DNA of 64,000 bases from Escherichia coli (GTDB taxonomy: Bacteria > Pseudomonadota > Gammaproteobacteria > Enterobacterales > Enterobacteriaceae), in NCBI RefSeq assembly GCF_002854065.1, contig NZ_CP024147.1, one strand, 5' to 3'. Under the pieces are notes generated by a model. It searched no databases and was not told where the DNA came from. It was given only the letters and a program-made list of their open reading frames with translations. Every line of letters starts with the position of its first letter. The stretch's first letter is position 1. The position numbers were made by a program, and so were the translations under genes. Shown piece after piece: positions 3,664-12,302 of this stretch.

Positions 3664-4695
<1,032 letters not shown>

Positions 4696-4707
4696 CCGCT
4701 GATTTAC

Positions 4708-4731
4708 CCGGCGCAGTCTCTCCTGCGCCGG
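4708..4731. terminator. Hairpin between convergent pgl and ybhD, possible bidirectional terminator
   Basis: CCGGCGCAG / CTGCGCCGG inverted repeat; weak U-tract. Confidence 0.4.
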
Positions 4732-4735
4732 TGTA

Positions 4736-5689
4736 TTAACCTATCTCCTGTAACGCATGTCTCTGGCGTTCGACGATATTGGTCCACAAATTGTCTTTAT
4801 CGTCAGTCCACAAATTAATCAGCAAGGCAAAAAAGCGTTCAGCTGCCGGAGAAAGCACGGCATCTTTGCGGCGAATAATCCCCAATGTCCGACGTATAAC
4901 GGGTTCCACCAGTGGGATACCAATAATCGAAGAATAGGGCGCATGGGGCATTGCCAGACCAGGAAGCGCTGAAATCCCCAGTCCTGCCTCCACCAGTCCT
5001 AATGACGTCGAAAGATGACGCACTTCGTAAAACCAGTCCAGCTTCCAGGGCTTGTCGGCTAGCTGTTGTTCTATCAACAGTCGGTTGCCGCTGGAGGAGC
5101 GTACGCCAATCATTTTGTAACCCACTAACTCCTGCCATTCTACAAGCTGCTTTTTGGCCAATGGATGGTCACGCCGACAGGCCAGCACGAACGGCTCGTT
5201 GACCAGTGGGCTAAAATCAATGGATGAATTTGTGACGTTGTTCATGTTTATGCCAAAGTCTGATTCGTTACATAGCACCGATTCCATGCAATTATTCGTG
5301 CCTTGTTCCAGAATCCGCACTTTAATATTGGGATACAGCTCATTAAATTTACCGATTGCCAGCGGTAAAAAATAAAATACTGCGGTCGGAATACACGCTA
5401 ACGTCACCATACCACGATGATAAGCATTCATATCACGAATATTAAAAAGCGTTTCATCGAATTTCTTTATTAATTCCCGCGCCTCCGGGAGCAACCTTTT
5501 TCCTGCTTTTGTTAACGTAACCTTGCGAGTTGTACGCTCAAATAGTTGAATATGTAAATCTTCCTCCATCTTTTTTATTCTTCGCGTTAATGCAGGTTGC
5601 GTAATGTTGAGTAATTTAGCGGCATTGTTAAATGAACTGGACTCTGCCAGTATGACAAATGCCTTCATACTTGATAATTCATGCTTCAT
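4736..5689 (-). CDS. ybhD: LysR-family transcriptional regulator
   Basis: N-terminal HTH typical of LysR; start chosen at MKHELSS (317 aa) with GGAG Shine-Dalgarno. Confidence 0.88.
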   Translation of the reverse strand: MKHELSSMKAFVILAESSSFNNAAKLLNITQPALTRRIKKMEEDLHIQLFERTTRKVTLTKAGKRLLPEARELIKKFDETLFNIRDMNAYHRGMVTLACIPTAVFYFLPLAIGKFNELYPNIKVRILEQGTNNCMESVLCNESDFGINMNNVTNSSIDFSPLVNEPFVLACRRDHPLAKKQLVEWQELVGYKMIGVRSSSGNRLLIEQQLADKPWKLDWFYEVRHLSTSLGLVEAGLGISALPGLAMPHAPYSSIIGIPLVEPVIRRTLGIIRRKDAVLSPAAERFFALLINLWTDDKDNLWTNIVERQRHALQEIG

Positions 5690-5733
5690 TATTACTCCGG
5701 AAAATGGAAGCGTTGATTTTGGGTGGCTGGCCG

Positions 5734-5746
5734 TTAAAAATTTTAA
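5734..5746. promoter_or_regulatory. Candidate LysR-type T-N11-A box in ybhD/ybhH divergent region
   Basis: Palindrome TTAAAAATTTTAA in the divergent intergenic region. Confidence 0.35.
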
Positions 5747-5872
5747 CTGCATTTAGCCAACTTAAATTAATGAAAAAATGTTATTAATCGTTGAGCTAAA
5801 GTCATTAGAGATGCTTTGCCCTTAATGTAACCATATCGCAATAAGTTATATTTTTAAATTGAGGGCATTATT

Positions 5873-6925
5873 ATGAAAAAAATACCCTGCGTGATGATGC
5901 GAGGTGGAACCTCGAGGGGCGCGTTCCTGTTAGCGGAACATTTACCCGAAGATCAAACGCAGCGCGATAAAATATTGATGGCAATTATGGGTTCCGGTAA
6001 CGATCTGGAAATTGACGGTATTGGCGGCGGTAATCCGCTGACCAGTAAAGTCGCCATTATTAGCCGTTCCAGCGATCCGCGTGCTGATGTCGATTATCTG
6101 TTTGCTCAAGTTATCGTCCATGAGCAACGTGTCGATACCACGCCTAACTGCGGCAATATGCTGTCTGGCGTTGGGGCATTCGCCATTGAAAATGGTTTGA
6201 TTGCAGCGACTTCGCCAGTTACCCGCGTACGTATCCGCAACGTCAATACGGGTACGTTTATCGAAGCTGATGTGCAAACACCAAATGGTGTTGTCGAGTA
6301 CGAGGGTAGCGCCAGAATTGACGGCGTACCGGGTACTGCCGCACCGGTTGCGCTCACTTTCCTGAATGCCGCTGGAACGAAAACCGGAAAAGTTTTCCCG
6401 ACTGATAATCAGATTGATTATTTTGACGATGTCCCGGTGACCTGTATCGATATGGCGATGCCAGTCGTCATTATTCCGGCTGAATATCTGGGAAAAACAG
6501 GCTATGAATTACCGGCGGAACTGGATGCCGACAAAGCATTATTAGCCCGCATTGAATCTATCCGTCTACAAGCGGGTAAAGCAATGGGCTTAGGTGATGT
6601 CAGTAATATGGTTATCCCTAAACCTGTGCTTATTTCTCCAGCGCAGAAAGGCGGGGCAATTAATGTGCGTTATTTTATGCCGCATTCTTGCCATCGCGCG
6701 TTGGCGATAACCGGTGCTATTGCTATTTCCAGTAGTTGTGCATTGGAAGGCACCGTCACCCGACAAATCATCCCTTCTGTAGGATATGGCAATATCAATA
6801 TTGAACCCCCCAGTGGTGCGCTCGACGTTCATTTAAGTAATGAAGGTCAGGATGCCACGACGTTACGCTCATCTGTTATTCGGACGACCAGAAAAATATT
6901 TTCCGGTGAAGTTTATCTTCCCTGA
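5873..6925 (+). CDS. ybhH: PrpF/AcnD-accessory-like isomerase family protein
   Basis: 350 aa; recognised YbhH sequence. Confidence 0.85.
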   Translation: MKKIPCVMMRGGTSRGAFLLAEHLPEDQTQRDKILMAIMGSGNDLEIDGIGGGNPLTSKVAIISRSSDPRADVDYLFAQVIVHEQRVDTTPNCGNMLSGVGAFAIENGLIAATSPVTRVRIRNVNTGTFIEADVQTPNGVVEYEGSARIDGVPGTAAPVALTFLNAAGTKTGKVFPTDNQIDYFDDVPVTCIDMAMPVVIIPAEYLGKTGYELPAELDADKALLARIESIRLQAGKAMGLGDVSNMVIPKPVLISPAQKGGAINVRYFMPHSCHRALAITGAIAISSSCALEGTVTRQIIPSVGYGNINIEPPSGALDVHLSNEGQDATTLRSSVIRTTRKIFSGEVYLP

Positions 6926-7000
6926 AAAGATTCGTTGTCAGGATAAGGACAATCAATAAAGGACTTCTGTATGAGTCATACAGAAAGAACAGGATTTTAA

Positions 7001-8434
7001 ATGAATAAGAAATCGTTATGGAAGCTAATTCTGATATTAGCGATCCCATGTATTATTGGCTTTATGCCAGCTCCGGCAGGATTAAGCGAACTGGCGTGGG
7101 TGCTTTTTGGTATTTACCTGGCGGCCATTGTGGGGCTGGTTATCAAGCCTTTCCCGGAACCTGTCGTACTGTTAATTGCCGTTGCTGCCTCCATGGTGGT
7201 GGTCGGTAACTTATCCGACGGTGCGTTTAAAACCACCGCCGTATTAAGCGGTTACTCTTCAGGTACTACCTGGCTGGTGTTCTCGGCGTTTACCTTAAGC
7301 GCCGCATTTGTGACCACCGGTTTAGGTAAACGTATTGCCTATCTGCTGATTGGTAAAATCGGTAACACCACGCTGGGTCTGGGTTACGTTACGGTATTCC
7401 TCGATCTGGTACTGGCTCCGGCAACACCGTCTAACACCGCGCGTGCGGGCGGCATTGTGTTACCGATCATCAACAGCGTGGCGGTAGCTTTGGGGTCCGA
7501 ACCGGAAAAAAGTCCGCGTCGTGTCGGACATTACCTGATGATGTCCATTTACATGGTCACCAAAACCACCAGCTATATGTTCTTTACCGCAATGGCGGGG
7601 AACATTCTGGCGCTGAAAATGATCAACGACATTCTGCACCTGCAAATTAGCTGGGGTGGATGGGCGCTGGCCGCCGGATTGCCGGGCATCATTATGCTGC
7701 TGGTCACCCCGCTGGTGATTTACACCATGTATCCACCAGAAATTAAGAAGGTGGATAACAAAACCATCGCTAAAGCGGGCCTTGCCGAACTGGGACCGAT
7801 GAAAATCCGCGAAAAAATGCTGCTCGGTGTCTTTGTGCTGGCGCTGCTGGGCTGGATTTTCAGTAAGTCTCTGGGGGTTGATGAATCCACCGTGGCAATC
7901 GTTGTTATGGCGACCATGCTGCTGCTGGGTATCGTTACCTGGGAAGACGTGGTTAAAAATAAAGGCGGCTGGAATACCTTAATCTGGTACGGCGGTATTA
8001 TCGGCTTAAGCTCCTTATTATCGAAAGTTAAATTTTTCGAATGGTTAGCTGAAGTCTTTAAAAATAACCTGGCATTTGATGGTCACGGTAACGTTGCTTT
8101 CTTCGTTATTATTTTCCTCAGCATCATCGTGCGTTATTTCTTCGCTTCCGGTAGTGCCTATATCGTTGCTATGTTACCTGTATTTGCCATGCTGGCGAAC
8201 GTCTCCGGCGCACCGTTAATGTTAACCGCGCTGGCACTGTTGTTCTCCAACTCCTATGGCGGCATGGTTACTCACTATGGCGGCGCGGCAGGTCCGGTCA
8301 TCTTTGGCGTGGGTTACAACGATATTAAATCCTGGTGGTTGGTCGGTGCGGTACTGACGATATTAACCTTCCTGGTGCATATCACCCTCGGCGTATGGTG
8401 GTGGAATATGCTGATCGGCTGGAACATGCTGTAA
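7001..8434 (+). CDS. ybhI: DASS-family (di/tricarboxylate-type) inner membrane transporter
   Basis: 477 aa polytopic membrane protein; recognised YbhI. Confidence 0.88.
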   Translation: MNKKSLWKLILILAIPCIIGFMPAPAGLSELAWVLFGIYLAAIVGLVIKPFPEPVVLLIAVAASMVVVGNLSDGAFKTTAVLSGYSSGTTWLVFSAFTLSAAFVTTGLGKRIAYLLIGKIGNTTLGLGYVTVFLDLVLAPATPSNTARAGGIVLPIINSVAVALGSEPEKSPRRVGHYLMMSIYMVTKTTSYMFFTAMAGNILALKMINDILHLQISWGGWALAAGLPGIIMLLVTPLVIYTMYPPEIKKVDNKTIAKAGLAELGPMKIREKMLLGVFVLALLGWIFSKSLGVDESTVAIVVMATMLLLGIVTWEDVVKNKGGWNTLIWYGGIIGLSSLLSKVKFFEWLAEVFKNNLAFDGHGNVAFFVIIFLSIIVRYFFASGSAYIVAMLPVFAMLANVSGAPLMLTALALLFSNSYGGMVTHYGGAAGPVIFGVGYNDIKSWWLVGAVLTILTFLVHITLGVWWWNMLIGWNML

Positions 8435-8440
8435 ATATAC

Positions 8441-8566
8441 TCGTCATACTTCAAGTTGCATGTGCTGCGTCTGCGTTCGCTCACCCCAGTCACTTACTTA
8501 TGTAAGCTCCTGGGGATTCACTCGCTTGTCGCCTTCCTGCAACTCGAATTATTTAGAGTATATCCA
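8441..8566. repeat. ERIC/IRU intergenic repeat
   Basis: Contains CGCTCACCCCAGTCACTTACTTATGTAAGCTCCTGGGGATTCAC, reverse complement of the ERIC core as recalled. Confidence 0.75.
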
Positions 8567-8616
8567 TTTATTATCTTTCTGCGCACTTCACGGTGCGCAG
8601 ATATCTGGAGCATTTA

Positions 8617-10878
8617 ATGATCAAGTTATCTGAAAAAGGCGTGTTTCTCGCCAGTAATAACGAAATAATTGCCGAAGAACATTTCACCGGCGAAATTAAA
8701 AAAGAAGAAGCCAAAAAAGGCACTATTGCCTGGTCTATTCTCTCTTCTCATAATACGTCCGGAAATATGGATAAACTTAAAATTAAGTTTGATTCATTAG
8801 CCTCTCACGATATTACCTTTGTTGGTATTGTACAGACCGCTAAAGCGTCCGGTATGGAACGTTTCCCGCTGCCGTATGTGCTGACCAACTGCCATAACTC
8901 ACTTTGCGCCATCGGCGGCACCATTAACGGTGATGACCATGTTTTTGGTTTATCGGCGGCTCAGCGTTATGGCGGTATTTTTGTGCCTCCGCATATTGCG
9001 GTCATCCATCAATATATGCGTGAGATGATGGCAGGTGGCGGCAAAATGATCCTCGGGTCAGACAGTCACACCCGTTACGGTGCATTAGGGACAATGGCAG
9101 TCGGTGAGGGCGGCGGCGAGTTGGTAAAACAATTGCTTAATGACACCTGGGATATCGACTATCCGGGAGTTGTTGCGGTGCATCTGACCGGAAAACCAGC
9201 GCCGTATGTGGGGCCGCAGGATGTGGCGCTGGCTATCATCGGTGCCGTGTTCAAAAACGGCTACGTCAAAAACAAAGTGATGGAATTCGTAGGTCCCGGT
9301 GTTGCTGCGCTCTCTACCGATTTCCGTAACAGCGTTGACGTTATGACCACTGAAACGACCTGTTTAAGTTCTGTCTGGCAAACCGATGAAGAAGTCCATA
9401 ACTGGCTGGCGCTGCACGGTCGCGGCCAGGATTACTGCCAGCTTAACCCTCAACCGATGGCGTACTACGATGGCTGCATCAGCGTTGATTTAAGCGCCAT
9501 CAAACCAATGATTGCGCTGCCGTTCCACCCGAGCAACGTGTATGAAATCGACACACTGAACCAGAACCTGACCGACATTCTGCGTGAGATTGAAATTGAG
9601 TCCGAACGCGTGGCGCACGGTAAAGCCAAACTCTCGCTGCTGGACAAAGTGGAAAATGGTCGCCTGAAAGTGCAGCAGGGGATTATCGCGGGCTGTTCTG
9701 GCGGTAACTACGAAAACGTCATCGCGGCGGCGAATGCACTGCGCGGTCAATCCTGTGGCAATGACACCTTCTCGCTGGCGGTTTACCCGTCATCACAGCC
9801 GGTGTTTATGGATTTAGCCAAAAAAGGTGTGGTAGCAGATTTGATTGGCGCAGGCGCAATTATCAGAACCGCGTTCTGCGGCCCATGCTTTGGCGCGGGC
9901 GATACGCCAATCAACAACGGTTTGAGTATTCGCCACACCACGCGTAACTTCCCGAACCGCGAAGGCTCTAAGCCAGCTAATGGGCAGATGTCAGCGGTGG
10001 CGTTGATGGACGCTCGTTCTATCGCTGCGACTGCGGCAAACGGTGGCTATTTAACCTCTGCCAGCGAACTCGATTGCTGGGACAACGTGTCGGAGTACGC
10101 CTTCGATGTAACGCCGTATAAAAATCGCGTCTATCAAGGCTTTGTGAAAGGGGCGACCCAGCAACCGCTGATTTACGGACCGAACATTAAAGACTGGCCG
10201 GAATTGGGTGCGCTGACTGACAATATCGTCCTCAAAGTGTGCTCGAAGATCCTCGACGAAGTGACCACCACCGACGAATTGATTCCTTCCGGTGAAACCT
10301 CTTCTTATCGTTCAAATCCGATTGGTCTGGCGGAGTTTACCCTGTCACGCCGCGATCCAGGTTATGTTGGCAGAAGTAAAGCGACTGCTGAGCTGGAAAA
10401 TCAGCGTCTGGCGGGGAATGTCAGCGAGCTGACAGAGGTGTTTGCGCGCATTAAGCAGATTGCTGGTCAGGAGCATATTGATCCGCTGCAAACTGAAATT
10501 GGCAGCATGGTCTATGCGGTGAAACCAGGCGATGGTTCTGCGCGTGAACAGGCGGCGAGCTGCCAGCGTGTGATTGGCGGTCTGGCGAATATTGCCGAGG
10601 AGTACGCGACTAAACGCTACCGTTCTAACGTCATCAACTGGGGGATGTTACCTTTGCAGATGGCGGAAGTGCCAACCTTTGAAGTGGGGGATTACATTTA
10701 CATCCCTGGCATTAAAGCGGCGCTGGATAATCCGGGTACGACGTTTAAAGGTTATGTGATCCATGAAGATGCGCCGGTAACGGAAATTACGCTCTATATG
10801 GAAAGTCTGACTGCTGAAGAGCGCGAGATTATCAAGGCGGGTAGTTTGATTAACTTCAATAAAAACCGTCAGATGTAA
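8617..10878 (+). CDS. ybhJ: Aconitase-family protein (aconitase X-like)
   Basis: Start chosen at MIKLSEKG (753 aa) with GGAG Shine-Dalgarno; recognised YbhJ. Confidence 0.88.
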
Positions 10879-10884
10879 AAAGCA

Positions 10885-11010
10885 CCATGTGAATGTAGGT
10901 CGCATTCGGCACTTATTGTCGGATGCGATGCTGGCGCATCTTATCCGACCTACAAATCGCATCGAACCGTAGGCCGGATAAGGCGTTTACGCCGCATCCA
11001 GCAAATAGTT
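10885..11010. repeat. REP/BIME palindromic repeats
   Basis: GCCGGATAAGGCGTTTACGCCGCATCC and CGGATGCGATGCTGGCGCATCTTATCCG units between convergent ybhJ and ybhC. Confidence 0.8.
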
Positions 11011-11018
11011 AATAGCTC

Positions 11019-12302
11019 TTACTTCTTCGCCTCTGCAACCACTTTGCTACCCACGCCGCGGTTATTGTATTCCCACATGCGGTTGTAGTTAGTGTCATTC
11101 AGATTGCGCTGTATTTCGTCGCTATCGTCAACGCTGCCGGTATTACCCGCAAACGGACGATTAGAGATCACCGCATCGCCCCACGGTTTAACCGTGTTAA
11201 AACCTTCGTTGATGGCGCTATCACGGATCACCACCTGACCGTTGGTATTGGCATCAACATCCAGCGAGCGGCCCAGTTGCGCCACGCCATCACCGGAAGC
11301 ATTGAAACGGCTGTTTACGGCGAGGAAACCGTAATAGATGTTGGACAGCGTAGCCGGTGCAAACACATACGCTTCTTGCTGAGTACGTGAGTTCACCACG
11401 CGGAATTCGGTGTTATCGAACACCACTGCACCGCGACCAGAAACGATATCCACATCCCCTTCAATATAGCTGTTGGTCACCAGCGTACGCGGCTGACGAT
11501 TCGTTTCCAGACGGTTCTGCACACCGCTGTTGGTGACAAAGAAGGTGTTCTGACGACCGAGAATGTTAACGTTGTTAATCTGTACCTGGTCACCGTCAGT
11601 ACGCAGTGCCACCGCCGGATGGTTACCCGCATCTACGCTATCACCCAGCGTGTTTTCGATGGTCAGGTTTTGCAGTTGCAGGCCATTATTTTGTGACCAG
11701 AAGACCGCAGAACACAGAACACCGATACTGTCGCTGCGTTTGCTCTGGCAGCTATCGTACATATACCACGCTGGTTTACCTGGCATATATTTGCCGCGCG
11801 GGTTGACGTCGTGACGCCAGTCGGCAGGGCTCATGCCCCCATCAAGGGAAAGCCCAATCTTCACATCAATCGGTTTTTCACCTGTACCGTACAGAGTAAT
11901 TCCACCTGGAGCAGCAGGGACATACACCGTTCCCTGATACTCACCAGGCATCACGGCAATATACTGGCGCTTGTTAGTGCGCTTGATAATTGCCGCATCT
12001 ACCGCCGCCTGAATCGTGGTATGCGTTACACCTTGAGTACCCGCCGGGCCGACAACAAAGTCAGGTTGCGCAGGCAGGGTTATCGGGGACGGATTCCACG
12101 CTGCAGCACCTGGTGTCAGGGATGCAAAATAGTGTTGAGCATCGAAATTCTGCGCTTCTTTTGCCGACAGAATCGGGCGAGAAGAGGTACCAGGCGCAGT
12201 TTGATCAGAAGGACGTTGATCGGGTGGTGTTGAGCTACAGGCGGTCAGCGTCACGCCAAAAGCCAATGCCAGCGCCAGACGGGAAACTGAAAATGTGTTC
12301 AC
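11019..12302 (-). CDS. ybhC: Outer-membrane lipoprotein, pectinesterase-like fold
   Basis: 427 aa; lipobox LTAC in signal peptide; recognised YbhC. Confidence 0.9.
   Translation of the reverse strand: MNTFSVSRLALALAFGVTLTACSSTPPDQRPSDQTAPGTSSRPILSAKEAQNFDAQHYFASLTPGAAAWNPSPITLPAQPDFVVGPAGTQGVTHTTIQAAVDAAIIKRTNKRQYIAVMPGEYQGTVYVPAAPGGITLYGTGEKPIDVKIGLSLDGGMSPADWRHDVNPRGKYMPGKPAWYMYDSCQSKRSDSIGVLCSAVFWSQNNGLQLQNLTIENTLGDSVDAGNHPAVALRTDGDQVQINNVNILGRQNTFFVTNSGVQNRLETNRQPRTLVTNSYIEGDVDIVSGRGAVVFDNTEFRVVNSRTQQEAYVFAPATLSNIYYGFLAVNSRFNASGDGVAQLGRSLDVDANTNGQVVIRDSAINEGFNTVKPWGDAVISNRPFAGNTGSVDDSDEIQRNLNDTNYNRMWEYNNRGVGSKVVAEAKK

What the first reader, a model, noticed from the sequence alone, without database searches (positions are those of the whole stretch)
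4736..10878. ybhD with divergent ybhH-ybhI-ybhJ: a cryptic organic-acid utilisation module
A LysR-type regulator is divergently transcribed from three genes encoding a PrpF/AcnD-accessory-like isomerase, a DASS-family carboxylate transporter and an aconitase-family protein. This gene combination suggests uptake and isomerisation/hydration of a tricarboxylate-like substrate. A T-N11-A palindrome (TTAAAAATTTTAA, 5734..5746) lies in the divergent promoter region. To my knowledge the substrate is not established.
Basis: partly seen in the sequence, partly recalled or inferred. Interest (0 to 1): 0.45.

Follow-up and report, generated by a model that had tools for sequence, protein, structure and literature searches.

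The report
E. coli ybhD-ybhHIJ organic-acid gene cluster

Summary
The four genes are real and sit where stated: ybhD (LysR, 4736..5689, minus strand), ybhH (PrpF/LigU-family isomerase), ybhI (DASS carrier) and ybhJ (aconitase-family Fe-S hydratase, 8617..10878). The cluster is present in 5316 of 5426 complete E. coli genomes. No substrate is published. A ybhD deletion de-represses ybhH (Rodionova 2022).

A different box, ATTAAT-N11-ATTAAT (5766..5788), occurs once in each of 9 enterobacterial ybhD-ybhH intergenic regions.

New here:
- YbhJ keeps the Fe-S cysteines and the catalytic residues.
- Its 66-73% identical orthologues in gut Clostridia lie in operons with citrate synthase plus isocitrate dehydrogenase, or with citrate lyase.
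- Some of these operons also carry a PrpF isomerase, a carboxylate carrier and a LysR gene.
- In Klebsiella and Enterobacter the cassette abuts the citrate-fermentation island.

Best reading: uptake, allylic isomerisation and hydration of an aconitate-type tricarboxylate to citrate or isocitrate, repressed by YbhD. The substrate and DNA binding remain untested. The kind of system is ordinary, the hypothesis is testable, and interest is moderate to low.

The parts
4736..5689 (-). ybhD, a LysR-type transcriptional regulator (317 aa)
   Evidence: RefSeq coordinates. Full-length LysR-family hits. Orthologues carry PF00126 and PF03466. A ybhD deletion de-represses ybhH (PMC9068703).
5690..5872 (.). 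Divergent ybhD/ybhH intergenic control region (183 bp, 68% A+T)
   Evidence: Aligned across 9 Enterobacterales.
5734..5746 (.).
   Evidence: Present. P about 0.13 by shuffling. Found only in E. coli and E. albertii.
5766..5788 (.). Conserved LTTR-type box ATTAAT-N11-ATTAAT, the candidate YbhD recognition site
   Evidence: The pattern ATTAAT-N11-ANNANT occurs exactly once in each of 9 of 9 orthologous intergenic regions, with its centre 81-100 nt from the regulator's ATG. The first half-site is invariant. It is the only exact match in the 64-kb window.
5798..5808 (.). Conserved block AAAGTCATTAG; possibly an activation-site or -35 region (inferred)
   Evidence: Identical in 7 of the 9 taxa; the two Klebsiella sequences differ.
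5826..5834 (.). Conserved block TGTAACCAT; possibly the -10 region of the ybhH promoter (inferred)
   Evidence: No TSS data were available.
5873..6925 (+). ybhH, a PrpF/LigU-family 1,3-allylic isomerase (350 aa). This window carries a rare H311P change at 6803..6805.
   Evidence: PDB 6OTV is E. coli YbhH. It matches LigU at E = 1e-91, and the LigU catalytic residues Lys66 and Cys100 are kept as K59 and C93. H311P.
6964..6986 (+). Perfect 11-bp-arm palindrome or hairpin between ybhH and ybhI, with no T tract after it
   Evidence: Only partly conserved.
7001..8434 (+). ybhI, a DASS-family di/tricarboxylate carrier (477 aa)
   Evidence: TIGR00785 at 553.9 bits. 35.7% identical to the spinach 2-oxoglutarate/malate translocator (PMC9068703 supplement).
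8438..8566 (+). ERIC/IRU dispersed repeat inserted between ybhI and ybhJ
   Evidence: Contains both ERIC primer sequences. Median of 11 copies per E. coli genome. Long hairpin with z = -7.9. Absent in Citrobacter and Edwardsiella.
8579..8600 (+). Conserved stem-loop CTGCGCAC-N6-GTGCGCAG just upstream of the ybhJ Shine-Dalgarno sequence
   Evidence: 4 of 7 predicted pairs show compensatory changes across 7 taxa.
8617..10878 (+). ybhJ, an aconitase-family [4Fe-4S] hydratase (753 aa)
   Evidence: PRK11413 at 1538 bits. Cys360, Cys421 and Cys424, the DSH motif, His131, Glu246, Arg443, Arg448, Arg565, Ser641 and Arg643 are all kept. Orthologues sit in citrate synthase/IDH and citrate-lyase operons.
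10881..11016 (.). REP/BIME elements after the ybhJ stop codon, marking the end of the unit
   Evidence: Sub-threshold naRNA4 (REP-derived) hits and the sequence itself.

Best explanation
ybhD/ybhHIJ is a normally silent catabolic cassette controlled by a LysR-type regulator. It acts on an unsaturated tricarboxylate, most probably aconitate: plant or dietary trans-aconitate, and/or cis-aconitate.

Proposed steps (all inferred):
1. YbhI, a DASS carrier, takes the acid up, possibly by exchange.
2. YbhH, a PrpF/LigU-fold enzyme that uses a Lys/Cys pair, performs a 1,3-allylic proton shift that turns the trans isomer into the cis isomer.
3. YbhJ, an oxygen-labile [4Fe-4S] aconitase-type enzyme, hydrates the cis isomer to citrate or isocitrate.
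4. The product enters the TCA cycle through Icd or, anaerobically, the citrate-lyase fermentation route.

YbhD represses ybhH without inducer. I infer that it binds the conserved ATTAAT-N11-ATTAAT box at 5766..5788, about 96 nt upstream of the ybhH ATG and 88 nt upstream of its own ATG.

What is shown: gene identities, intact catalytic residues, cassette conservation and mobility, de-repression of ybhH in a ybhD mutant (published), and the genomic association of YbhJ orthologues with citrate enzymes.

What is inferred: the substrate, the reaction order, the operator, and co-transcription of ybhJ.
For: 1. Cassette integrity. LysR / PrpF - DASS - aconitase-family genes are kept together in Escherichia, Citrobacter, Intestinirhabdus, Edwardsiella, Klebsiella and Enterobacter, at three different chromosomal sites.

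2. Link to citrate fermentation. In Klebsiella and Enterobacter the cassette directly abuts the citrate-fermentation island citAB-oadGAB-citS.

3. An intact YbhJ active site. It keeps the three Fe-S cysteines, the DSH motif, His131, Glu246, Arg443, Arg448, Arg565 and Ser641/Arg643. It shares His64 and the SSxRSN arginine with PRK07229-type aconitate hydratases.

4. Context of YbhJ orthologues. Orthologues 66-73% identical occur in species-representative genomes of gut anaerobes.
- They lie in ybhJ-citrate synthase-IDH operons in L022, L024, L025, L031, L032, L049 and L052, and divergently in L051. Citrate synthase alone is adjacent in L034, L035, L043 and L059.
- They lie next to citrate lyase genes in L017, L021, L027, L040, L061 and L062. 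L061 shows CitD and CitE before its contig ends, and L062 shows CitE and CitF. CitG and CitC follow in L021 and L027.
- These assignments rest.

5. A near-complete parallel operon. L021 (Lacrimispora amygdalina) reads LysR | CitMHS/MatC carrier - PrpF - YbhJ - CitDEFGC. L061 has the same start. L038 and L009 have PrpF - YbhJ next to a beta-decarboxylating dehydrogenase.

6. Family precedent. PrpF-family enzymes are the known aconitate isomerases (TarA, TbrA, Ais, Adi1, PrpF). The tar system is likewise LysR plus isomerase plus importer (PMC11495376; PMC5690661).

7. Regulation. ybhH is strongly up in a ybhD deletion (PMC9068703).

8. Operator candidate. The conserved box is present in 9 of 9 taxa at a fixed distance from the regulator gene.

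9. A possible Icd link. A ybhJ deletion lowers NADPH, as does an icd deletion (PMC4054840). This fits a supply of isocitrate to Icd, but the evidence is weak.
Against: - No biochemical or growth evidence exists for any substrate.
- YbhH is most similar to LigU, the (4E)-oxalomesaconate isomerase (about 50% identity by my estimate from the alignment, not a reported figure). It passes NCBI's equivalog cut-off for that enzyme. It is not orthologous to the PrpF genes that sit next to YbhJ in Firmicutes, which are 33-40% identical.
- The literature treats YbhJ as contributing no aconitase activity. Krisko 2014 calls it 'catalytically inactive', citing Blank 2002.
- The family replaces aconitase Asp100 with Cys and Ser643 with Ala.
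- Enteric YbhJ proteins form a sister clade to the Firmicutes clade. They are not nested inside the citrate synthase/IDH-linked subclade.
- Some anaerobes carry a canonical PRK07229 aconitase beside a YbhJ-type gene, so the two types may not be redundant.
- The only published phenotype of a ybhD mutant involves L-malate.
- The single ChIP-exo peak for YbhD lies inside yihP, not in this intergenic region.
- In E. coli an ERIC element separates ybhI from ybhJ, and the source paper speaks of a 'ybhHI' cluster plus ybhJ, so co-transcription of ybhJ is unproven.
Confidence: 0.4

Rival explanations
1. An oxalomesaconate-type route. YbhH would be a true LigU/GalD orthologue that isomerises 4-oxalomesaconate, or a close analogue released by gallate or protocatechuate ring cleavage in the gut. 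YbhJ would replace the LigJ/GalB hydratase, and the hydrated product would be split by a housekeeping aldolase.
For: YbhH scores 508.7 bits on the OMA_tautomer equivalog model (cut-off 440), matches LigU structures at E = 1e-91, and keeps the catalytic Lys and Cys. In L056 and L030, YbhJ-family or PRK07229-type aconitase genes sit with an RraA/LigK-like aldolase, and L056 also has a PrpF gene nearby.
Against: The locus has no ring-cleavage dioxygenase, LigJ/GalB or LigK/GalC. Its neighbours are pgl, ybhA, ybhC and ybhB. E. coli YbhJ groups with the orthologue clade tied to citrate enzymes, not with the paralogues next to the aldolase, which are about 48% identical. The Klebsiella cassette sits by the citrate-fermentation genes.
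Confidence: 0.15
2. Another unsaturated di- or tricarboxylate, such as itaconate, mesaconate or citraconate derivatives, methylitaconate/dimethylmaleate, or homoaconitate. It would be isomerised and hydrated in the manner of the Mii plus dimethylmaleate hydratase pair in Eubacterium barkeri nicotinate fermentation.
For: YbhH matches 3-methylitaconate isomerase at E = 6e-66. UniRef names one Edwardsiella YbhJ a '2,3-dimethylmalate dehydratase large subunit'. That a PrpF-fold isomerase feeds an aconitase-family hydratase in that pathway is established knowledge recalled from memory. Divergent 388-393 aa dehydrogenases of unclear specificity accompany PrpF-YbhJ in L038 and L009.
Against: The recurrent neighbours of YbhJ orthologues are citrate synthase, an IDH-like dehydrogenase and citrate lyase, which points to C6 tricarboxylates of the citrate family. 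YbhJ keeps the arginines that bind three carboxylates in aconitase.
Confidence: 0.15
3. An L-malate or C4-dicarboxylate-related function, as proposed by Rodionova et al. 2022. YbhI would be a malate/2-oxoglutarate-type exchanger, and YbhH and YbhJ would act on a malate-derived acid.
For: A ybhD deletion shows a growth phenotype in glycerol M9 only when L-malate is added. YbhI is 35.7% identical to the plant 2-oxoglutarate/malate translocator.
Against: The phenotype is indirect: 238 genes are differentially expressed in the mutant. Neither a PrpF-fold isomerase nor an aconitase-type hydratase has an obvious role on malate. DASS carriers often exchange a tricarboxylate for a dicarboxylate, so a malate effect also fits the main explanation.
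Confidence: 0.1
4. A decaying or non-enzymatic remnant. YbhJ would be catalytically inert, or act only as an Fe-S/redox sensor or RNA binder in the way apo-aconitases do, and the cassette would have no catabolic role in E. coli.
For: YbhJ is described as catalytically inactive, and a ybhJ deletion is H2O2-sensitive with low NADPH (PMC4054840). Truncated 598-648 aa YbhJ variants occur in some E. coli. ybhI is split in Edwardsiella tarda. There is an IS1 insertion in one strain. This window carries a rare H311P change in YbhH.
Against: All Fe-S ligands and catalytic residues are conserved across phyla at 66-86% identity. The cassette is intact in 98% of complete E. coli genomes. Truly degenerate relatives such as P0148 and P0154 look quite different.
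Confidence: 0.12
5. An AcnD/PrpF-type 2-methylcitrate-cycle module for propionate catabolism.
For: PrpF scores 181 bits on YbhH.
Against: YbhJ scores 63 bits on the AcnD model (cut-off 1420), and YbhH is below the PrpF cut-off (181 against 440). No prpB or prpC genes lie nearby. That E. coli already uses PrpD is established knowledge.
Confidence: 0.03

Closest known systems
tarRAB trans-aconitate assimilation system of Bacillus velezensis FZB42 (PMC11495376)
   Same: It has a LysR-type regulator, a PrpF-superfamily isomerase and a dedicated importer, and the product enters the TCA cycle.
   Different: The importer there is an MFS protein, not a DASS carrier. TarR is an activator, whereas YbhD behaves as a repressor. 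The tar system has no dedicated aconitase-family hydratase. Identity between TarA and YbhH was not measured here. No activity is shown for YbhH.
AcnD-PrpF pair of the 2-methylcitrate cycle (Shewanella oneidensis; PMC5690661)
   Same: An aconitase-family Fe-S dehydratase works with a PrpF-fold isomerase on an unsaturated tricarboxylate.
   Different: YbhJ is not an AcnD orthologue (63 bits against a 1420 cut-off). There are no prpB or prpC neighbours. YbhH is nearer to LigU than to PrpF.
LigU/GalD (4E)-oxalomesaconate delta-isomerase of the protocatechuate 4,5-cleavage and gallate pathways (PDB 6P3H/J/K)
   Same: This is the closest characterised homologue of YbhH. The fold is the same, the Lys/Cys catalytic pair is conserved, and YbhH passes NCBI's equivalog cut-off.
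   Different: The E. coli context lacks the dioxygenase, the LigJ/GalB hydratase and the LigK/GalC aldolase. An aconitase-type hydratase and a DASS carrier are present instead.
3-methylitaconate isomerase (Mii, PDB 3G7K) plus dimethylmaleate hydratase in Eubacterium barkeri nicotinate fermentation (pathway recalled from memory)
   Same: A PrpF-fold allylic isomerase is followed by an aconitase-family hydratase.
   Different: The substrates there are dicarboxylates and the hydratase has two subunits. Citrate-enzyme neighbours are not a feature of that pathway.
PRK07229/TIGR01342-type bacterial aconitate hydratases
   Same: This is the best non-self family match for YbhJ (343 bits). The two share domain order, Fe-S ligands, His64, Arg565 and the catalytic Ser and Arg.
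   Different: YbhJ is about 100 residues longer. It has Cys for the Asp that precedes the catalytic His, and Ala for the second Ser of the GSSRE motif. It falls below the family cut-off (343 against 612).

Membership tests
LysR-type transcriptional regulators (YbhD) | An N-terminal winged-helix HTH plus a C-terminal periplasmic-binding-protein-like effector domain, about 300 aa in total | tested here: met
   Full-length hits to many LysR models over residues 5-295. Orthologues carry PF00126 and PF03466. SUPERFAMILY domains are listed in the PMC8464067 supplement.
LysR-type transcriptional regulators (YbhD) | Divergent transcription from the target operon, with a T-N11-A dyad box in the shared control region | tested here: met
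The divergent arrangement is shown. A conserved ATTAAT-N11-ATTAAT box lies at 5766..5788 and is present in 9 of 9 taxa.
LysR-type transcriptional regulators (YbhD) | Direct, effector-modulated binding to the target promoter | not testable with these tools
   Only RNA-seq de-repression of ybhH is available. The single ChIP-exo peak lies elsewhere, inside yihP.
PrpF / LigU / Mii isomerase family, PF04303 (YbhH) | The diaminopimelate-epimerase-like fold, with the catalytic Lys in PLTSK and Cys in NCGN | tested here: met
   PDB 6OTV is YbhH itself. K59 and C93 align with the LigU positions that are mutated in 6P3H and 6P3K.
4-oxalomesaconate tautomerase/isomerase proper (LigU/GalD) | A score above the curated equivalog cut-off | tested here: met
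   NF033377 scores 508.7 bits against a cut-off of 440.
4-oxalomesaconate tautomerase/isomerase proper (LigU/GalD) | Pathway context: a ring-cleavage dioxygenase, an OMA/KCH hydratase (LigJ/GalB) and a CHA aldolase (LigK/GalC) | tested here: not met
   The neighbours are modC, ybhA and pgl on one side and ybhC, ybhB and bioA on the other. No such genes occur in the Klebsiella, Edwardsiella or Intestinirhabdus cassettes either.
DASS (divalent anion:Na+ symporter) family (YbhI) | A full-length match to the family model above its cut-off | tested here: met
   TIGR00785 scores 553.9 bits against a cut-off of 198.6, covering residues 23-468.
Aconitase / IPM isomerase superfamily (YbhJ) | Three Cys ligands for a [4Fe-4S] cluster, together with the DSH motif, the catalytic Ser and the substrate-binding Arg residues | tested here: met
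   C360, C421, C424, D149-S150-H151, H131, E246, R443, R448, R565, S641 and R643 are conserved.
Aconitase / IPM isomerase superfamily (YbhJ) | The Asp-His pair (pig mitochondrial aconitase Asp100-His101) | tested here: not met
   The whole family reads N-C-H-N, with Cys92 in place of Asp. PRK07229 aconitases keep L-D-H.
Aconitate hydratase (EC 4.2.1.3) proper | A score above the curated cut-off of a named aconitase model (AcnA, AcnB, mitochondrial or PRK07229) | tested here: not met
   The best is PRK07229 at 343 bits against a cut-off of 612. AcnA models score 79-96 bits and AcnB 31-51 bits.
Aconitate hydratase (EC 4.2.1.3) proper | Operon association with citrate synthase and isocitrate dehydrogenase, or with citrate lyase | tested here: met
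   This holds for orthologues 66-73% identical in gut anaerobes: 12 loci with citrate synthase, 10 with an IDH-like gene of 332-364 aa, and 6 with citrate lyase genes. It does not hold in E. coli itself. In Klebsiella and Enterobacter the cassette lies next to the citrate-fermentation genes.
Aconitate hydratase (EC 4.2.1.3) proper | Measured citrate/isocitrate/cis-aconitate interconversion | not testable with these tools
   The literature, via Krisko 2014 citing Blank 2002, reports no attributable activity. The primary paper is not held.
AcnD (Fe/S 2-methylisocitrate dehydratase) | A match to the equivalog model, with prpB and prpC neighbours | tested here: not met
   TIGR02333 scores 63.1 bits against a cut-off of 1419.85. 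No prp genes are nearby.

The most novel reading that the evidence does not exclude
YbhJ would not be an inert aconitase paralogue. It would be a working member of a distinct, mostly anaerobe-borne aconitase clade (signature NCHNS...GSARE) that serves as the citrate/isocitrate/aconitate hydratase of many gut Clostridia, with orthologues also in Collinsella, where no metabolic neighbours were seen. Enterobacteria would then carry this enzyme packaged with a LigU-like isomerase, a DASS carrier and a LysR repressor. Together these would form a dedicated trans-aconitate or cis-aconitate salvage or detoxification module feeding citrate fermentation or Icd. That would give E. coli a third true aconitase.
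Probability: 0.3. Interest if true: 0.5.

Novelty: new member of a known kind. Interest (0 to 1): 0.33.

Why it matters
Four conserved E. coli K-12 genes of unknown function would gain a pathway. That includes an aconitase-family protein currently dismissed as inactive, and a protein whose crystal structure (6OTV) has no assigned reaction.

If the aconitate reading holds, three things follow:
- It explains how enteric bacteria handle trans-aconitate, which is known from the literature (recalled, not checked here) as a plant-derived aconitase inhibitor.
- It corrects the RefSeq name '4-oxalomesaconate tautomerase'.
- It identifies the aconitase used in citrate synthase-IDH operons of many gut Clostridia.

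The practical gain is modest. This is an ordinary kind of LysR-controlled catabolic operon, and the cluster is already in the literature.

Tried and rejected
Rejected on a shuffle test (P about 0.13) and on lack of conservation outside Escherichia.
- ChIP-exo cross-check. The only published YbhD peak lies inside yihP and contains no ATTAAT box. It neither supports nor refutes the new box.
- The AcnD/PrpF analogy. Rejected by model scores.
- Distant YbhJ-like representatives P0148 and P0154. They lack the cysteines and the DSH motif and sit in uninformative contexts, so I excluded them from the profile.
- The Collinsella orthologues, the largest single group among the 80 loci. They lie among heat-shock genes (hspR, dnaJ, dnaK, clpB) and give no metabolic clue.
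- Literature searches for a substrate of ybhH, ybhI or ybhJ, and for LigU structure details, found nothing decisive. Blank et al. 2002 is not held. The trans-aconitate papers did not test YbhH.
- Rfam. There are only sub-threshold hits, explained by the ERIC and REP repeats or by coding-sequence similarity.
- Promoter and terminator scan. It found no convincing promoter in the intergenic regions and no plus-strand terminator between the three genes.
- CRP and Nac sites. CRP genomic SELEX lists ybhH as a predicted target, and Nac control is cited from EcoCyc. I looked only by eye, found no clear consensus site, and did not pursue it.
- The first consensus fold upstream of ybhJ failed because the Klebsiella-group sequences are not homologous there. 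I redid it without them.

Full report
WHAT IS THERE

The window region 4736..10878 is the Escherichia coli ybhD / ybhH-ybhI-ybhJ locus. A megablast of 4500..11100 finds at least 80% of it in 5316 of 5426 complete E. coli genomes. RefSeq annotation of a 99.9% identical genome maps to these window coordinates:
- ybhD 4736..5689 (-)
- ybhH 5873..6925 (+)
- ybhI 7001..8434 (+)
- ybhJ 8617..10878 (+)

The locus is flanked by pgl and ybhA on one side and by ybhC and ybhB on the other. The mechanical ORF list over-extends ybhD to 5752 and ybhJ to a GTG at 8593.

- YbhD gives full-length LysR hits.
- YbhH passes the '4-oxalomesaconate tautomerase' equivalog (508.7 bits, cut-off 440). It hits PrpF more weakly (181 bits).
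- YbhI is a DASS carrier (553.9 bits, cut-off 198.6).
- YbhJ is the type member of PRK11413 'hydratase'. Its secondary hits are to aconitase, IPMI and homoaconitase models. It is nowhere near AcnD (63 bits against 1420).

WHAT IS ALREADY KNOWN

- E. coli YbhH has a solved structure, PDB 6OTV, labelled 'putative isomerase'.
- Rodionova et al. 2022 (PMC9068703) described the same cluster. They showed that ybhH is strongly up-regulated in a ybhD deletion, noted Nac control from EcoCyc, and suggested a link to L-malate from a growth phenotype.
- Gao et al. 2021 tagged YbhD for ChIP-exo. The only peak (signal/noise 3.57) lies inside yihP. Direct binding of YbhD to its own intergenic region has therefore not been shown.
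- Krisko et al. 2014 call ybhJ a 'catalytically inactive paralog' of aconitase, citing Blank et al. 2002. They report that a ybhJ deletion is H2O2-sensitive with low NADPH.
- Full-text searches found no paper that assigns a substrate to any of the three structural genes.
- CRP genomic SELEX lists ybhH among predicted targets.

THE PALINDROME

TTAAAAATTTTAA is at 5734..5746, inside the 183-bp, 68% A+T intergenic region. Three results argue against it as the operator:
- A perfect 6-N1-6 palindrome arises in 13% of dinucleotide-preserving shuffles of that region.
- Bare T-N11-A occurs 25 times there.
- I aligned the regulator-isomerase intergenic regions of E. coli, E. albertii, Intestinirhabdus alba, two Citrobacter, two Edwardsiella and two Klebsiella.

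A different dyad is conserved instead: ATTAAT-N11-ATTAAT at 5766..5788.
- As ATTAAT-N11-ANNANT it occurs exactly once in each of the nine regions.
- Its first half-site is invariant.
- Its centre lies 81-100 nt from the regulator's start codon.
- It is the only exact match in the 64-kb window. One further match appears when a single mismatch is allowed, against 0.21 expected at that setting.

Two more blocks are conserved in 7 of the 9 taxa: AAAGTCATTAG (5798..5808) and TGTAACCAT (5826..5834).

This spacing would fit the classical LysR layout, with a recognition site near -65, an activation site near -35 and then the -10. I have no transcription-start data, so this is inference.

THE CASSETTE TRAVELS AS A UNIT

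The same order, LysR | PrpF-family - DASS - aconitase-family, is found at three kinds of chromosomal site:
- Between pgl and ybhC in Escherichia, Citrobacter and Intestinirhabdus.
- At another site in Edwardsiella, where ybhI is split in E. tarda.
- Beside the citrate-fermentation island citAB-oadGAB-citS in Klebsiella aerogenes and K. oxytoca, with an extra DASS gene. An Enterobacter-like contig shows ybhJ directly next to the same citrate island, but it ends just upstream of ybhJ, so the rest of the cassette is unseen there.

G+C content of ybhD-ybhH is 41-48%, against 51-54% in the flanks. This mildly suggests acquisition from elsewhere.

YbhJ IS NOT DEGENERATE

I aligned YbhJ to pig mitochondrial aconitase and to PRK07229-type aconitate hydratases.
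- It keeps the three cluster cysteines (C360, C421, C424).
- It keeps Asp-Ser-His 149-151, His131, Glu246, Arg443, Arg448, the domain-4 arginine in SSYRSN (R565), and Ser641/Arg643.
- It departs from the family at Cys92 for the Asp that precedes the catalytic His, at Val for Asn258, and at Ala for the second Ser of GSSRE.
- Truly degenerate relatives (P0148, P0154) have lost the cysteines and the DSH motif.

WHERE THE FAMILY LIVES, AND WITH WHAT

An exhaustive profile-free search shows few full-length clusters above 40% identity. A scan of one genome per species confirmed 596 relatives. The best 80 include the enterics, but most are 66-73% identical proteins from gut anaerobes. These are Lachnospiraceae, Enterocloster, Hungatella, Clostridium, Butyrivibrio, Megasphaera, Erysipelotrichaceae, Synergistales and Collinsella.

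I clustered the neighbouring ORFs and named them with NCBIfam or Pfam. Two patterns recur.
- ybhJ - citrate synthase - IDH. The citrate synthase matches PRK14032 at 574 bits (cut-off 426). The dehydrogenase is an isocitrate-dehydrogenase-like protein of about 333 aa scoring about 440 bits. The pattern occurs in L022, L024, L025, L031, L032, L049 and L052, and divergently in L051. Citrate synthase alone is adjacent in L034, L035, L043 and L059. IDH alone is adjacent in L017 and L019.
- ybhJ beside citrate lyase genes CitD, CitE and CitF, in L017, L021, L027, L040, L061 and L062. L061 and L062 show only two of the three genes. CitG and CitC follow in L021 and L027.

The Lacrimispora amygdalina locus L021 reads LysR | CitMHS/MatC carrier - PrpF - YbhJ - CitD-E-F-G-C. 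That is the same logic as the E. coli cassette, with the downstream enzyme attached. L061 starts the same way. L038 and the metagenomic L009 have PrpF - YbhJ next to a divergent beta-decarboxylating dehydrogenase.

A neighbour-joining tree puts the enteric proteins in one clade, sister to the whole anaerobe clade. The loci linked to citrate synthase and IDH form a subclade within the anaerobe clade.

Three caveats apply:
- Some genomes also carry a canonical PRK07229 aconitase beside a YbhJ-type gene (L030, L056, L058, L060, L009).
- The PrpF genes next to YbhJ in Firmicutes are only 33-40% identical to YbhH.
- The Collinsella copies have no metabolic neighbours.

MECHANISM PROPOSED

Taken together, the best-supported reading is a repressed catabolic cassette for an aconitate-type tricarboxylate. 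This reading rests on inference from genomic context, not on any assay.
1. YbhI imports the acid.
2. YbhH carries out the 1,3-allylic shift that interconverts trans and cis isomers. The LigU catalytic residues Lys66 and Cys100 are conserved as K59 and C93. PrpF-family enzymes are the known aconitate isomerases.
3. YbhJ hydrates the cis isomer to citrate or isocitrate.
4. YbhD represses the operon until an inducer appears, probably through the 5766..5788 box.

I give this reading 0.4.

The main rival (0.15) takes the YbhH-LigU similarity at face value and proposes an oxalomesaconate-type substrate. Against it stand the absence of every other gene of that pathway and the citrate-enzyme context of YbhJ orthologues.

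The other rivals are a different unsaturated acid (0.15), a malate-related role (0.10), a non-enzymatic or decaying remnant (0.12), and an AcnD/PrpF methylcitrate module (0.03, effectively excluded by model scores).

CO-TRANSCRIPTION

No plus-strand terminator-like site lies between the three genes.

The 75-bp ybhH-ybhI gap holds a perfect 11-bp-arm palindrome at 6964..6986, with no T tract after it. It is only partly conserved.

The 182-bp ybhI-ybhJ gap is mostly an ERIC/IRU repeat at 8438..8566.
- It contains both ERIC primer sequences.
- It has a median of 11 copies per genome.
- It folds into a long hairpin with z = -7.9.
- It is absent from Citrobacter and Edwardsiella, where the gap is about 65 bp.

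A short stem-loop at 8579..8600, just before the ybhJ ribosome-binding site, is conserved with compensatory changes in 4 of 7 pairs.

ERIC elements are typically transcribed (recalled knowledge). Co-transcription therefore remains plausible but unproven, and the published description separates 'ybhHI' from ybhJ.

VERDICT

The functional guess is reasonable and now better focused. The proposed operator is probably wrong. The cluster itself is already described in the literature.

It is an uncharacterised member of a familiar kind of system: a LysR-controlled organic-acid operon with a PrpF-fold isomerase and an aconitase-fold hydratase. Interest is moderate to low (0.33). The main value is a concrete, cheap test of aconitate isomerase and hydratase activity for proteins that are annotated otherwise or dismissed as inactive.

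Noticed in passing
window 6803..6805 (ybhH codon 311): This window's YbhH has Pro (CCC) where all 12 other PrpF-family proteins compared, including LigU, have an invariant His in the motif (I/V)(E/G)H(P/A)xG. PDB 6OTV (E. coli YbhH) also has His at this position. The Pro allele occurs in 1 of 5426 complete E. coli genomes (strain AR_0085), against 5301 with His. It creates a run of six C, so it could be a real, possibly inactivating variant or a homopolymer sequencing error.
   Followed up: yes
window 8438..8566: An ERIC/IRU dispersed repeat is inserted between ybhI and ybhJ. It has a median of 11 copies per E. coli genome and folds into a long RNA hairpin (-62.8 kcal/mol for the 182-nt gap, z = -7.9). 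It is present in E. coli and E. albertii but absent in Citrobacter and Edwardsiella. The sub-threshold Rfam hits V_AS5 and isrH on the minus strand are probably derived from it.
   Followed up: yes
window 8579..8600: A stem-loop CTGCGCAC-TTCACG-GTGCGCAG lies immediately upstream of the ybhJ Shine-Dalgarno sequence. It is conserved in the 7 enteric taxa where ybhJ follows ybhI, and 4 of 7 pairs show compensatory changes. Its function is unknown; mRNA processing, mRNA stability or translational control are possibilities.
   Followed up: partly
window 6964..6986: A perfect palindrome with 11-bp arms, CTTCTGTATGA-g-TCATACAGAAG, lies between ybhH and ybhI. No T tract follows it on the plus strand, and it is only partly conserved in other genera.
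   Followed up: partly
window 10881..11016: REP/BIME elements lie between the convergent ybhJ and ybhC genes (sub-threshold naRNA4 hits). They account for part of the many extra megablast 'places' per genome; the ERIC repeat at 8438..8566 contributes most of them.
   Followed up: partly
L004/L005 7483..8912 (Edwardsiella tarda): The ybhI orthologue is split into two tblastn segments and no gene is called there. This suggests the carrier is a pseudogene in E. tarda, while E. hoshinae keeps it intact.
   Followed up: partly
(other E. coli strains): One strain (100416) has an IS1 element inside the region. Several E. coli protein clusters hold truncated YbhJ of 598-648 aa, some on up to 27 contigs. 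This shows occasional decay of the cassette within the species.
   Followed up: no
L056, L030, L009 (gut-anaerobe and metagenome loci): Some loci combine two or three aconitase-family genes (YbhJ-type plus PRK07229-type) with one or more of a PrpF isomerase, an RraA/LigK-like aldolase, a GltD-like oxidoreductase and a divergent 388-393 aa beta-decarboxylating dehydrogenase. This hints at a larger, undescribed tricarboxylate pathway in anaerobes.
   Followed up: partly
L063-L091 (Collinsella): The YbhJ orthologue (67% identical) sits between the hspR/dnaJ/dnaK heat-shock genes and clpB in many Collinsella genomes, with no metabolic neighbours.
   Followed up: no
window 7466..7717 (-): A sub-threshold Rfam hit to the Yersinia antisense sRNA Ysr283 (40.6 bits, gathering threshold 58) lies opposite ybhI. 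It most likely reflects coding-sequence homology rather than an RNA gene.
   Followed up: no
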